Below, one piece after another: positions 8,178 through 16,331 of a stretch of DNA of 64,000 nt; positions within the stretch are counted from its first letter, which is position 1; the number at the start of each line of letters is the position of its first letter. The stretch is taken from the NCBI GenBank assembly GCA_963697995.1, contig OY969110.1:359404-423403 (forward strand). Direction: 5' to 3'. Source of the DNA: an uncultured Chlamydiae bacterium (lineage in GTDB: Bacteria; Chlamydiota; Chlamydiia; Chlamydiales; JAJFMB01). The notes under the pieces are model-generated. The model made no database searches. It was given only the letters and a program-made list of their open reading frames with translations, and was not told the origin of the DNA. A program made the translations under genes and the position numbers.

Positions 8178-8325
8178 TAGTTGGCCCTGAAAAAGTGATC
8201 CTTTTGCAACAAAAAAAGCGGTGAACGACGCCCCCCCCCCCTTGAGGGGTTTAGTGAGGAGTAAAACGCCTTTTTTGTCAAAAGGGACACTTTTTATTGG
8301 AGAGGACTTTTTTTAGGGCCGACTA
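8178..8325 (+). mobile_element. MITE copy A (148 bp, internally deleted variant)
   Basis: Ends are TAGTTGGCCCTGAAAAAGT ... ACTTTTTTTAGGGCCGACTA. It lacks the 132 bp lying between the two GAAAAAGT direct repeats of the full copy at 37150-37424. It carries a C11 tract (8231-8241). The last 3 nt (CTA, 8323-8325) form the TAG stop codon of the giant minus-strand gene. Confidence 0.8.
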
Positions 8326-11300
8326 GTTAATATTTCCAAGCATCTCAAAAACTTTTGCCTCTTCGTTACTCTCAATCGCTTTCAACATCGCCACAGTACT
8401 TTTATGGGTTGCCAAACTCCTCTCCATTTCACTCTTTCGCTCCGCAAATTCCGCTGAGTTCTTGTTTTTTAACTTCTCACGGATCACTTCATGCAAAGGC
8501 TTCTCTCCTATCTCCTGATAATCAATTACACGCTCTCCCCGATCTGATTTAATCGGTATAAGCGCTTTCTCAATCAAATAGCTAGCTTGCAAAATCTGTT
8601 GATAAGTACCAGGCTCACCCTGTCTTGCCGCTCTTCCCATATGTTGGTCCCACTCCGCCAAATTCTCTGGAACGATCGTCGATAAAACATACACACCGCC
8701 CGCCCGAATTAAAGCTGAATCGCGGCAAACAAAGTCGGTTCCTCGCCCGTATTGCTTGATCATTAACGTGATCTTCATTGAAGTGGTCGAACGATAAACG
8801 ACGTTATCCCTGTCCTCAAATGTTTGATCTTCGTGAAGCACCTCAGGAGCCGGCAAATTCCCAGGACGAGCAGCTAACTTTAACTTAAATTTCTCCAAAC
8901 TGTCCCAATCCTCAAAAATCATAAGCGTTGATCTTCGATCCCTATAACAGGCCTCTAAAGCCTCTTTTAACCTCTGAAAATACGTATCGTAATCCCCATC
9001 CACAATAATTGTTTTCTCAGTCACTGTCTTTTGCTTCAAAGCAAAGGTCGTTGGGATAAAAGAACGCTTTTTAAACTCATACTTTTCTAATAGATTTAAC
9101 TCCTCGGGTAACAATTGATTTAACGTTCCCGTCATTCCCAAACGCAAGTCGTAAAAAAGAGGAACCTCAGAATAAGCAAAAGCTCCACAATTCAACATCA
9201 CCCCTATAGCCGAAGAAACATTGGAATCAGATGTGATATCCCCCTTTTCTCTACGGTAAATATAAGCAAATTGCGTCACATAATCGGGTTGATAAATATT
9301 AAAATTAATAGAACAAGAGATAGGATCCTTATAACCTATTTTGTTATCTTGACAAATATGCTTGTGAGTCGACTCACTTCCCACCGGAAAAAAACGAACC
9401 CCTTGAAGCATCATTTGAATTTGTTTGCGAAGAAAACTGGTGGCACGAGGGTATTTGGTCAGAAAGGCCACACTCTCTGGTATTTGTAGGACCTGATCGA
9501 CACGCAAATTCTCCTGCCGATGATTCCACACATACCGAACAATGTTTTGCGAATCGATCTCATTGAATATATGATAAATACCTGTTGTTTTATCGTAAAA
9601 ATCGGAACCAAAAAAGATATCGATTTCATCAATCAATAAAAGCCTTTTACTACTCTTCTCATCCCTAAAAGGGGGCACGCTCTGATCTCCGATAAACTTT
9701 TTTACGTATTCCGTGCGATCGTAAATATATCCCCTATCAGAACACTCCTCAAAGAGATCATTAATCGGTATGTAGAAAATGTCGTTTGGAACCCCAAAAA
9801 GTCTAAACAAAGGAAGAAAAAGACGTTTATCCCGATTGGAAAGGTAAGGGTTATGGCACACCACATCGACCTTGTAACCAAATAGAGCAAATAAAGTGGC
9901 GACAGCCCCAAGACAGACAGACTTGCCTTCCCCTGTCAAAAGCTCTAAAATATGATTTTGGATTTTACCCGAATTAGCATCTGCACCTATTAGACGAAAT
10001 ATCGCTAACACCTGCGTCTTGTGAGGTTGTAACAAAGTCGTCTCTTCAGTCACTTGAAAGTCACTTGGAATACTAGAGACTGTCCATCCTGCAAAAATGC
10101 AAGCAAACATCTCTGCTAAAGGCTCCGGATAACGGTAAAGCTCCTCTGCATGAGGCTTTAAAATGCGAACTAATTCATCTTTTCTTCTTAAAAGAGCGCC
10201 CCTATCAAAACGATTATAAAGTATATCGTTAATATATATTTCGTAAAAACTTTTGAAATGGTTATATATAGTTTGAAGTTTATTCTTATTCACATCAAAG
10301 CTTGGCTCAACAGTTAACCTAGCAAGAGCATCTTCAAAACTGACCCCACCAGTCACCTTCACACGTGTGTCGATCTCAATCATCTTAAACACCGGGATCG
10401 ATTCGATAATAAAAGATGCAGCAGCGGCCATTTCAGGAAAGTTAACCCCCACCATGGTGATCTTTTTACCTAAATGATACTTTGTTTCTCCCTTGACACT
10501 AGAGGTTGGATCTTCACTTAAACATTTAATCGAATCCTTAATTGCCTGCAAAGCTTTTGGCCTATCAGAAAGTTCTGCTCCAATAGCTACATTTCTCACC
10601 ATCCATTTAGCCAATTTAAGAAGATACACTTCATAATCAGAGGAGTTTTTTAAACGACTTCCAACAAACGCGGTTAATTTTTGACACATCTTCTCATAAT
10701 TTTCTTTTAACTGCCTATCGTTAAATTGAAACGAGTATTTTCCAAGATTTTGTGCTAAAGCTCTTCTAAACTCTTGAAAATTTTTAAGGTTTTTTAAAAG
10801 GAAGTAGTGAACTGAATCGGTATTTTCTTCTAAAATTTCATTTTTTGCTTGAATCACTAACTCTTCCAAATAGGCATTCATCTCTTTAACTAATAGAGTG
10901 ACATCGATTGTCAAATGGTCACCCAGTTTTACTTGTAAATTTTCCATTAAGTTAAAGGTGCTCACGACCTGAGCAAAACGACCCGACTCGAGAAGAGGTC
11001 TGATCTTTCCACGAAGAGTTGCTGTCAAATAGACTTGAAGTAAGTTAATCGTTGTGTCATAGGCTTCCCGATCTAACTGTCTCAATTGATGCATTTGTTC
11101 ATTTAAATCCTTTCTTTGAACCAAAACATCGACCTTTTCTTTATCGATCAACTCTTTGAACTCTTGAGCTAGCCCTTTAGCTAATGTCTTTTGAGCCTCT
11201 CTTCTCATATCTTCAAGAAGAGTTTTAATTAAGTCATTCTTAAACTCTGAAAGAAAATCAATTACTTCTCTCTCATTTTGAGAATTAACAAGTTGTTCGA

Positions 11301-15885: not shown

Positions 15886-16051
15886 AACATGAAGAGTGTC
15901 AATCCTCTCATTTTTGCTAAAAAAAAATCAATCAAATACAATTGTAAGCAGATCTTCCTCTGAGACAAAGGAACGTTCAACATCGACTTAAAATTGAAGT
16001 TATGCATCCTCGTTATCGAGAAGTAAAAAAATGATAAAAATCTCATTTAAA

Positions 16052-16331
16052 TAGTCGGCCCTTAAAAAAGTCCTCTCCAATAAAAAGGGCCCCTTTTGAC
16101 AAAAAATGCGTTTTACTCCTCACCAAACCCCTCAAGGGGGGGGTAAGCATCGTTCACCGCTTTTTTTGTTGCAAAAGGATCACTTTTTCTTTGGAGAGTG
16201 CGTGTTCCATTCGCAAAATTTTTAAGCTTTTCTCATTGTCATACAATTAACCTTGCAAAATAGGCTATGTCTCTCTTCCTCGTTAATTGCAAATTTTTCT
16301 CAAGGAACCCTTACTTTTTCAGGGCCGACTA
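16052..16331 (-). mobile_element. MITE copy B (280 bp, full length, inverted relative to copies A and C)
   Basis: Ends are TAGTCGGCCCTTAAAAAAGT...ACTTTTTCAGGGCCGACTA. The internal sequence is the reverse complement of 37150-37424. It carries a G8 tract (16136-16143). It lies ~170-200 bp upstream of the giant gene start. Confidence 0.85.

What the first reader, a model, noticed from the sequence alone, without database searches (positions are those of the whole stretch)
8178..16331. Giant gene bracketed by inverted MITE copies; one copy sits exactly in its stop codon
Three copies of one non-coding element occur in the window (8178-8325, 16052-16331, 37150-37424). All have 19-bp terminal inverted repeats TAGTCGGCCCTGAAAAAGT.

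Treating the outer TA as a target-site duplication gives flanks TA|GTCGGCCC...GGGCCGAC|TA at all three sites. That would fit IS630/Tc1-mariner-type mobilisation.

Copies A and B flank the 2520-aa gene in inverted orientation, like a composite structure. The TAG stop of the giant gene is the last 3 nt of copy A. Removing the element plus one TA restores AAC-TAA, so the insertion hit the original stop codon without changing the protein.

Copy A is a deletion derivative: 132 bp are lost between two GAAAAAGT direct repeats. The copies also differ in an internal homopolymer (C11, G8 in the inverted copy, C6). Copy B lies ~170-200 bp upstream of the giant gene start and could contribute promoter or regulatory sequence.
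Basis: seen in the sequence. Interest (0 to 1): 0.6.

Follow-up and report, generated by a model that had tools for sequence, protein, structure and literature searches.

The report
IS5-derived MITE copies flanking giant gene
Three copies of a small transposase-less transposon, derived from a widespread IS5-family insertion sequence rather than IS630, sit between genes in an environmental chlamydia genome; two happen to flank a 2520-aa gene and one supplies its stop codon, which is real but ordinary mobile-DNA biology.

Summary
Three copies of one non-coding element lie at 8178-8325, 16052-16331 and 37150-37424. All carry the 19-bp terminal inverted repeat (TIR) TAGTCGGCCCTGAAAAAGT. Copy A lacks 132 bp, and the giant ORF's TAG stop is the last 3 nt of copy A.

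The elements are MITEs, but of IS5 type, not IS630/Tc1-mariner type. The same TIR bounds full-length insertion sequences encoding IS5-family transposases (NCBIfam NF033578), including ISRm12, ISGlo4 and a Leptospira IS. It also bounds many unrelated 76-620-bp MITEs in at least ten phyla.

The duplication is not just TA. Flanks read TA-NN-[TAG…CTA]-NN-TA. A filled versus empty site in Leptospira plasmids shows the empty site is TANNTA.

Three consequences follow:
- Copies A (gt/gt) and B (aa/aa) each carry their own duplication, so they are independent insertions and not a composite transposon.
- The insertion most likely removed the last five codons (LKAAR) and created the TAG stop. It did not land in a TAA stop.
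- No promoter-like site lies inside copy B.

Homologous MITEs occur in Waddliaceae and Simkania genomes. This is a new member of a known kind, of modest interest.

The parts
8178..8325 (+). MITE copy A, a short (148-bp) deletion derivative. It is nearly a single long hairpin.
   Evidence: RNA fold gives -54 kcal/mol, z -4.0 and -4.5 on the two strands.
16052..16331 (-). MITE copy B, full length (280 bp), inverted relative to A and C.
37150..37424 (+). MITE copy C, full length (275 bp), with both TIRs identical to the consensus.
8176..8177 (.). Left copy of the flanking duplication of A ('gt'). The partner is at 8326-8327.
   Evidence: The duplication pattern was validated on a Leptospira empty site.
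8326..8327 (.). Right copy of the flanking duplication of A ('gt'). It forms part of the last sense codon, AAC, of the giant gene.
16046..16051 (.). Left flank of B, TAAATA. It is repeated exactly at 16332-16337 when the terminal TA of the element is counted. The strict NN duplication is 'aa' at 16050-16051 and 16332-16333.
37146..37149 (.). Left flank of C, TAtc. The right flank at 37425-37428 is caTA. The outer TA is present on both sides but NN differs (tc versus ca).
8323..15885 (-). Giant ORF of 2520 aa. It has a P-loop NTPase motif near residue 690 and a SecA_DEAD-like motor domain at residues 1949-2033.
   Evidence: Homologues of the C-terminal 625 aa reach only 26-38% identity.
8323..8325 (-). 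TAG stop codon of the giant ORF, which is the terminal TAG of the MITE's TIR. It was created by the insertion.
   Evidence: with the duplication logic.
8158..8175 (-). Inferred former 3' end of the giant ORF, CTT AAG GCA GCG CGA TGA (LKAAR*), now separated from the gene by copy A.
   Evidence: Read from the sequence. This is an inference from the family's empty-site structure.
37284..37404 (+). Internal long inverted repeat (hairpin) of the MITE. It is present in all three window copies and conserved in other chlamydial copies, with compensatory changes. It contains a terminator-like stem followed by a T-run at 37368-37388.
8231..8241 (+). Homopolymer C11 in the hairpin loop of copy A. The equivalents are G8 at 16136-16143 and C6 at 37335-37340.
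15941..15968 (-). Sigma-70-like site (TTGTCT-16-TACAAT) between copy B and the ATG, outside the MITE.
   Evidence: This is a consensus match only: 6 sites in the region against 2.5±1.8 in shuffles.

Best explanation
The three elements are copies of a non-autonomous transposon (MITE). It derives from, and is mobilisable in trans by, an IS5-family insertion sequence of the ISRm12/ISGlo4 type, whose transposase matches NCBIfam NF033578.

That transposase recognises the 19-bp ends TAGTCGGCCCTGAAAAAGT. It inserts at T-A-N-N-T-A sites and duplicates the central bases. The result can be read in three equivalent ways: a 2-bp NN duplication with TAG/CTA ends, a 4-bp ANNT duplication with AG/CT ends, or a 6-bp TANNTA duplication with G/C ends.

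Each window copy arose by its own insertion into intergenic or gene-end DNA of an environmental chlamydia. Copy A later lost, or inherited the loss of, 132 bp between two GAAAAAGT repeats.

Copy A landed five codons before the original TGA stop of the 2520-aa gene. Because the element begins with TAG, the reading frame now ends at the element's first triplet. Flanking of the giant gene by A and B is coincidental.

Shown here: the copies, the TIRs, the link between the TIR and IS5-type transposases, the target pattern, and the empty-site structure in the parent IS family. Inferred: trans-mobilisation in this genome, the five-codon truncation, and the absence of any regulatory role.
For: - The copies and TIRs are real and non-random.
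Many hits lie at contig ends.
- Internal sequences of these elements are unrelated between taxa, while the TIR is identical.
- Full-length 1.46-1.53-kb elements bounded by the TIR encode IS5-family transposases. L041 scores 510 bits on NF033578 (cut-off 275), and L026 is a frameshifted copy. ISGlo4, ISRm12 and a Leptospira interrogans IS have the same ends. Further transposase matches lie next to the TIR in L015, L044, L042, L005 and L040.
- Among 25 distinct two-ended elements, the 2 nt abutting TAG..CTA are identical on both sides in 14. A 3-nt repeat is present in 3 more. The chance rate per element is 1/16. At 81 distinct ends, T occurs at -4 in 60 and A at -3 in 69.
- Leptospira plasmids give a filled site (pLiSL44) and 18 empty sites. 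The empty site reads CCTTATTTAGTTTT and the filled site CCTTATT[TAG..CTA]TTTAGTTTT.
- Window copies A (gt/gt) and B (aa/aa, or TAAATA/TAAATA) show their own duplications.
- Homologous full-length MITEs occur at unrelated sites in a Waddliaceae MAG, a Simkania sp. chromosome and a JGI metagenome contig.
Against: - No IS5-type transposase lies in the 64-kb window, and the rest of the 2.05-Mb genome could not be searched. A resident mobilising enzyme is therefore unproven.
- Copy C's NN flanks differ (tc versus ca).
- Copy A's left outer dinucleotide is AG rather than TA, and its left TIR has a C-to-T change.
- No orthologue of the giant protein above 38% identity was found, so the predicted lost LKAAR tail could not be checked.
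- Eight of the 25 paired elements show no flank repeat.
Confidence: 0.85

Rival explanations
1. The element is an IS630/Tc1-mariner-type MITE that duplicates TA only, and copy A inserted into the TA of an original TAA stop without changing the protein.
For: All six ends are flanked by TA if the element is defined as GTCGGCCC...GGGCCGAC. Removing the element plus one TA gives AAC TAA.
Against: - Every transposase found inside this TIR is IS5-family; none is IS630.
- The NN beyond the TA is also repeated far more often than chance allows.
- The real empty site is 4 nt shorter than this model predicts: 598 bp were observed for a 600-bp flank concatenate, against 602 bp expected.
Confidence: 0.04
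2. Copies A and B form a composite transposon that carried the giant gene into this locus, or can still move it.
For: The two copies are in inverted orientation and bracket a single 7.6-kb gene. In principle, the outer TIRs could be used together.
Against: - Each copy has its own matching duplication (A gt/gt, B aa/aa). The outer flanks of the pair differ, gt on the left of A and aa on the right of B. This is the signature of two separate insertions.
- The gene's G+C content (0.34-0.41) is like that of its surroundings.
- The two nearest intergenic regions necessarily flank the gene.
Confidence: 0.03
3. The element, or its conserved internal hairpin, has been co-opted by the host. It could act as a bidirectional terminator or insulator between convergent genes at A, or as a regulatory or small RNA at B. 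Its persistence across chlamydial families would then reflect selection and not only transposition.
For: - Full-length architecture is conserved between this genome, a Waddliaceae MAG and a metagenome contig at about 70% identity.
- In the consensus hairpin, 94.9% of cells pair, against 46-58% when partners are slid. Ten pairs show changes on both sides; 1 of 500 shuffles reached that count, and 0 of 500 reached the observed number of double-change cells (19) or the covariation score.
- A terminator-like stem followed by a T-run lies inside the element.
- Copy A sits exactly between two convergent genes and folds strongly.
Against: - Only about three independent lineages are represented.
- Concerted change of both arms is also expected if subterminal transposase-binding sites co-evolve with the transposase.
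- No Rfam family matches.
- No terminator-like site was called in copy A or in the region around copy B.
- Palindromic MITEs fold well by construction.
Confidence: 0.08

Closest known systems
ISRm12 (Sinorhizobium meliloti), ISGlo4 (Trichlorobacter lovleyi) and related IS5-family insertion sequences (NCBIfam NF033578, transpos_IS5_1)
   Same: The terminal inverted repeats are the same: TAGTCG(G/T)CCCTGAAAAAG. The flank pattern TA-NN-[TAG..CTA]-NN-TA is also the same.
   Different: These are 1.46-1.5-kb autonomous elements with a transposase gene of about 440 aa. The window elements are 148-280 bp with no ORF, and they share only the ends with those elements.
Bacterial MITEs derived from IS5-family elements, for example those described in Porphyromonas gingivalis and Pseudomonas syringae (papers listed, not read in detail)
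   Same: They are short non-coding elements with the TIRs of a parent IS. They are multi-copy, intergenic and hairpin-forming.
   Different: The parent IS, the sequence and the host phylum differ. My searches found no description of this chlamydial family.
Correia elements of Neisseria and RUP of Streptococcus pneumoniae (from my own knowledge, not tested here)
   Same: They are MITEs of about 100-160 bp flanked by TA that can end or fuse ORFs and carry terminator- or promoter-like signals.
   Different: Those elements duplicate TA only, and RUP is attributed to an IS630-type transposase. Here the duplication extends beyond TA and the cognate transposase is IS5-type.

Membership tests
MITE (miniature inverted-repeat transposable element) | Short (under about 500 bp) with no transposase ORF | tested here: met
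   The copies are 148, 280 and 275 bp. No ORF of 100 aa or more lies inside them.
MITE (miniature inverted-repeat transposable element) | Terminal inverted repeats shared by all copies | tested here: met
   All six ends match the 19-mer at up to 3 mismatches, against 0.05 expected.
MITE (miniature inverted-repeat transposable element) | Multiple dispersed copies at unrelated sites, each with a target-site duplication | tested here: met
   There are three copies in 64 kb. A (gt/gt) and B (aa/aa) have duplications and C does not. Homologous copies lie at unrelated sites in other chlamydial genomes. The genome-wide copy number was not obtainable.
MITE (miniature inverted-repeat transposable element) | An autonomous element with the same TIRs exists | tested here: met
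   IS5-family ISs with these TIRs occur in at least five fully bounded cases.
MITE (miniature inverted-repeat transposable element) | Autonomous partner present in the same genome | not testable with these tools
   Only the 64-kb window is available, and it contains no such transposase.
IS5 family (NF033578 / ISRm12-ISGlo4 type) derivative | Ends identical to those bounding IS5-type DDE transposase genes | tested here: met
   L041 scores 510 bits on NF033578 (cut-off 275). Its TIRs have 0 and 2 mismatches to the window TIR.
IS5 family (NF033578 / ISRm12-ISGlo4 type) derivative | Same target and duplication pattern as the parent IS | tested here: met
   ISRm12 and the Leptospira IS show TAtt|TAG..CTA|ttTA. 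An empty site confirms this. Window copies A and B follow the pattern.
IS630 / Tc1-mariner-mobilised MITE | Duplication of the TA dinucleotide only | tested here: not met
   The NN beyond the TA is also duplicated. The empty site is TANNTA, not TANNTANNTA.
IS630 / Tc1-mariner-mobilised MITE | An IS630-family transposase gene bounded by the same TIRs | tested here: not met
   None was found among the loci retrieved with the TIR. All transposases inside the TIRs are IS5-type, apart from one nested IS4.
Composite transposon | One shared duplication at the outer ends of the two flanking elements, with no individual duplications | tested here: not met
   The outer flanks, gt (left of A) and aa (right of B), differ. 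Each copy has its own matching pair.

The most novel reading that the evidence does not exclude
A single IS5-subgroup terminus, a 19-bp TIR invariant from Chlamydiota to Acidobacteria while the transposases have diverged to 38-52% identity, has seeded many independent MITE families. The chlamydial family has kept its full architecture across family-level divergence, with compensatory changes in a 120-nt internal hairpin. This could reflect co-option as a structured RNA or as a terminator/insulator element in chlamydial genomes, rather than purely selfish persistence.
Probability: 0.1. Interest if true: 0.5.

Novelty: new member of a known kind. Interest (0 to 1): 0.25.

Why it matters
This corrects an annotation-level story. 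The element is an IS5-derived MITE and not an IS630-derived one. The giant gene's stop codon was created by the insertion, which probably cost five residues. There is no composite transposon.

More generally, one IS5 subgroup with an almost invariant 19-bp end and a TANNTA target has produced MITEs in many bacterial phyla, including environmental chlamydiae. This helps repeat annotation and explains assembly breaks in such genomes: short-read contigs of this organism end at the copies. None of it changes current understanding of transposition.

Tried and rejected
- I searched for orthologues of the giant protein's C-terminus to read the ancestral stop. The best hits were only 26-38% identical, so they were uninformative.
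- I looked up exact-protein contigs for the flanking genes, hoping for sister strains with empty sites. Only the same organism's short-read contigs came back, and they break in the MITE.
- A metagenome scan with an internal 27-mer gave 0 hits. A second scan with the TIR plus AAGG gave one further chlamydia-type copy.
- I searched for an empty site for ISRm12 in the plasmid collection and found none. The Leptospira IS then gave 18 empty sites.
- A literature search for the TIR sequence gave 0 papers. Searches for ISRm12, ISGlo4 and chlamydial MITEs gave nothing specific.
- Promoter and terminator scans found no promoter-like site in copy B. A terminator-like stem was found only in copy C.
- A 57-nt match between window 33-89 and L005, near an IS5 transposase fragment, looked like an IS remnant at first. 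By eye it resembles a conserved protein-coding gene (RhuM-like, judged from memory). The IS5 transposases found no significant match in window 1-1200.
- L023 looked like a 1.7-kb element with an IS4-type transposase sharing the TIR. It is a Phycisphaerae MITE with a nested IS4 insertion.
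Full report
**1. Observation**

- Copy A is 8178-8325 (148 bp), copy B is 16052-16331 (280 bp, inverted) and copy C is 37150-37424 (275 bp).
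- The 19-mer TAGTCGGCCCTGAAAAAGT matches six times at up to 3 mismatches, exactly at the six ends. About 0.05 matches are expected by chance.
- B and C are 95-96% identical over the left half and 88% over the right half. A is 94% identical to B, and 90-100% identical to C over shared segments.
- A lacks 132 alignment columns. The junction falls in a GAAAAAGT that occurs both in the left TIR and internally.
- The homopolymers are C11, G8 and C6.
- ORF 8323..15885 (-) encodes 2520 aa. Its TAG stop is the terminal triplet of copy A.
- Short-read contigs of the same organism end inside copies A and C, as expected for a multi-copy repeat.

**2. Host**

The window carries a 16S-23S-5S rRNA operon at 53878-58932 on the minus strand and no tRNA gene. 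G+C is about 0.33-0.49.

A Na_H_antiport_3 protein in the window has named relatives only in Chlamydiota, including Waddlia, Parachlamydia, Criblamydia and various MAGs. These are 50-55% identical; unnamed relatives reach 76-81%.

The window's proteins come from one contig of 2,051,574 bp. The host is an environmental chlamydia.

**3. What the TIR belongs to**

They come from Waddliaceae, Simkania, Planctomycetota, Phycisphaerae, Verrucomicrobia, Acidobacteria, Bdellovibrionales, Myxococcota, Desulfovibrio and other Deltaproteobacteria, Nitrosomonas and Gammaproteobacteria. Many hits lie at contig ends.

Interior sequences are unrelated between taxa, while the 19 bp are identical. Most two-ended elements are 76-620 bp and non-coding.

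Several elements bounded by the TIR are 1.46-1.53 kb and encode a transposase.
- L041 (Blastopirellula) encodes 445 aa and scores 510 bits on NCBIfam NF033578, "IS5 family transposase" (cut-off 275). Its Pfam domains are DUF772 and DDE_Tnp_1.
- L026 (Chthoniobacteraceae) is a frameshifted copy.
- A tblastn search of the L041 protein against plasmids led to ISGlo4, ISRm12 and a Leptospira interrogans IS5-family element.
- All three have TAGTCG(G/T)C(C/G)CTGAA... at both ends.
- Further transposase fragments of this type lie next to the TIR in L015, L044, L042, L005 and L040.

The one apparent exception is L023, which carries an IS4-type transposase. It is a Phycisphaerae MITE with a nested IS.

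No IS630-type gene was seen. The element is therefore a MITE of an IS5-family subgroup, not an IS630/Tc1-mariner MITE.

**4. Target and duplication**

The flanks of 81 distinct ends have T at -4 in 60 cases and A at -3 in 69 cases, relative to the TAG. The ends therefore read TA-NN-TAG...CTA-NN-TA.

Among 25 distinct two-ended elements, the NN are identical on both sides in 14. Three more show a 3-nt repeat. The chance rate is 1/16 per element.

The decisive test came from the Leptospira IS.
- Its concatenated flanks (600 bp) match 18 other plasmids end to end, the closest of them over 598 bp.
- The junction alignment shows the empty site as CCTTATTTAGTTTT and the filled site as CCTTATT[TAG...CTA]TTTAGTTTT.
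- The empty site is thus TANNTA.
- The TA-only model predicts a sequence 4 nt longer and is refuted for this family.

Because the element's ends mimic the target, the event can be parsed in three equivalent ways:
- a 2-bp NN duplication with TAG/CTA ends;
- a 4-bp ANNT duplication with AG/CT ends;
- a 6-bp TANNTA duplication with G/C ends.

From my own knowledge, the 4-bp parse matches the duplication usually quoted for the IS5 subgroup. All three parses give the same empty site.

**5. Consequences for the window**

- Copy A has gt on both sides (8176-8177 and 8326-8327).
- Copy B has aa on both sides, and TAAATA on both sides in the 6-bp parse.
- Copy C has the outer TA on both sides, but its NN differ (tc versus ca).

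A and B each carry their own duplication, and the outer flanks of the pair differ. They are therefore two independent insertions, and the composite-transposon reading fails.

Removing copy A plus one gt gives, on the gene's strand, AAT ATT AAC CTT AAG GCA GCG CGA TGA. The 6-bp parse with the alternative target gives AAC TAT AAG ... TGA instead. In every parse consistent with the family, the ORF formerly ran five codons further, to a TGA at 8158-8160, and the present TAG was created by the insertion.

This remains an inference, which I put at about 0.75-0.8. No close orthologue was found to confirm the lost tail, and copy A's left end is slightly atypical: its TIR reads TAGTTGG and its outer dinucleotide is AG.

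**6. Deletion derivative**

The left part that A lacks is homologous to the left part of copies elsewhere. These comprise four copies in a Waddliaceae MAG, one in a Simkania sp. chromosome and one on a JGI metagenome contig.

**7. Regulatory ideas**

No sigma-70-like site lies inside copy B. One lies between B and the ATG, at 15968-15941 on the minus strand, and another lies upstream of B. The count in the region is not clearly above shuffles.

The right half of the element is a long hairpin. A terminator-like stem followed by a T-run is called in copy C. None was called in copy A or in the region around copy B.

Copy A folds strongly on both strands, with z -4.0 and -4.5, and lies between two convergent genes.

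Across seven chlamydial copies the consensus hairpin keeps 94.9% of cells paired, against 46-58% for slid controls. Ten pairs changed on both sides. However, only about three lineages are represented, and co-evolution of subterminal transposase-binding sites would give the same picture. A host function is possible but unsupported.

**8. Verdict**

The mechanism and three of the inferences are corrected.

It is a new member (a chlamydial family) of a known kind (IS5-derived MITEs). Interest is modest.

Noticed in passing
L041 520-559; window 16258-16251 (copy B) and 37223-37230 (copy C); L003, L021, L030, L033, L052: An inverted pair, TTGCAAGG-N23-CCTTGCAA, lies about 71 and 102 nt from the left end. 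It occurs in a full-length IS (L041, just upstream of the transposase ATG) and in otherwise unrelated MITEs of Waddliaceae, Simkania and Phycisphaerae. In a gammaproteobacterial MITE the spacing is the same but the pair is offset. In the window copies the second arm is degenerate. This suggests a conserved leader hairpin or binding site inherited by the MITEs.
   Followed up: partly
L003 1877-2175: Two MITE copies lie end to end in the Waddliaceae MAG. The second used the TA-ag-TA site formed by the terminal TA of the first plus its flank. Element ends therefore recreate preferred targets.
   Followed up: partly
L023 6308-7986: A Phycisphaerae MITE with the same TIR is interrupted by a nested IS4-family element with a 390-aa transposase (DUF4372 plus DDE_Tnp_1).
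   Followed up: yes
window 2798-2993 and 5318-5512: A second repeat family is present: two direct copies of about 195 bp, roughly 97% identical and 2.5 kb apart. Each has an internal hairpin (GGCGAATTAACAG...CTGTTAATTCG). It was not analysed further.
   Followed up: partly
window 52535-53844: A perfect 413-bp tandem repeat (3.2 copies, 100% matches) lies directly next to the 5S rRNA gene. More diverged partial copies start near 52330 and overlap ORF 52074-52583.
   Followed up: no
window 27626-28624 and 28695-29570: Two adjacent proteins carry pentatricopeptide (PPR) repeat hits. These are eukaryote-like repeats in a chlamydial genome (gene table).
   Followed up: no
window 8326-10200 (C-terminal 625 aa of the giant protein): The SecA_DEAD-like C-terminal module has its best homologues (26-38% identity) in unnamed metagenomic contigs, in eukaryote-labelled assemblies (Rotaria, Reticulomyxa, Symbiodinium, Ectocarpus) and in a gammaproteobacterial MAG. 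No close chlamydial orthologue was found. The exact 2520-aa sequence is absent from the protein collection, so it may be annotated with a different start or as a pseudogene.
   Followed up: no
window 48311-48512: A degenerate 12/15/27-nt periodic repeat (GTTGCTGTTGCA-like) lies inside ORF 48251-48832 on the minus strand. It probably encodes a low-complexity region; this reading is by eye from the repeat units.
   Followed up: no
L019 and L051 (Waddliaceae MAG): The same insertion site was assembled twice with different internal poly-C lengths (GGGAAAAATTTTCTCCCCCC versus GGGACCCCCCCCCCCCC). This echoes the homopolymer variability seen in the window copies.
   Followed up: no
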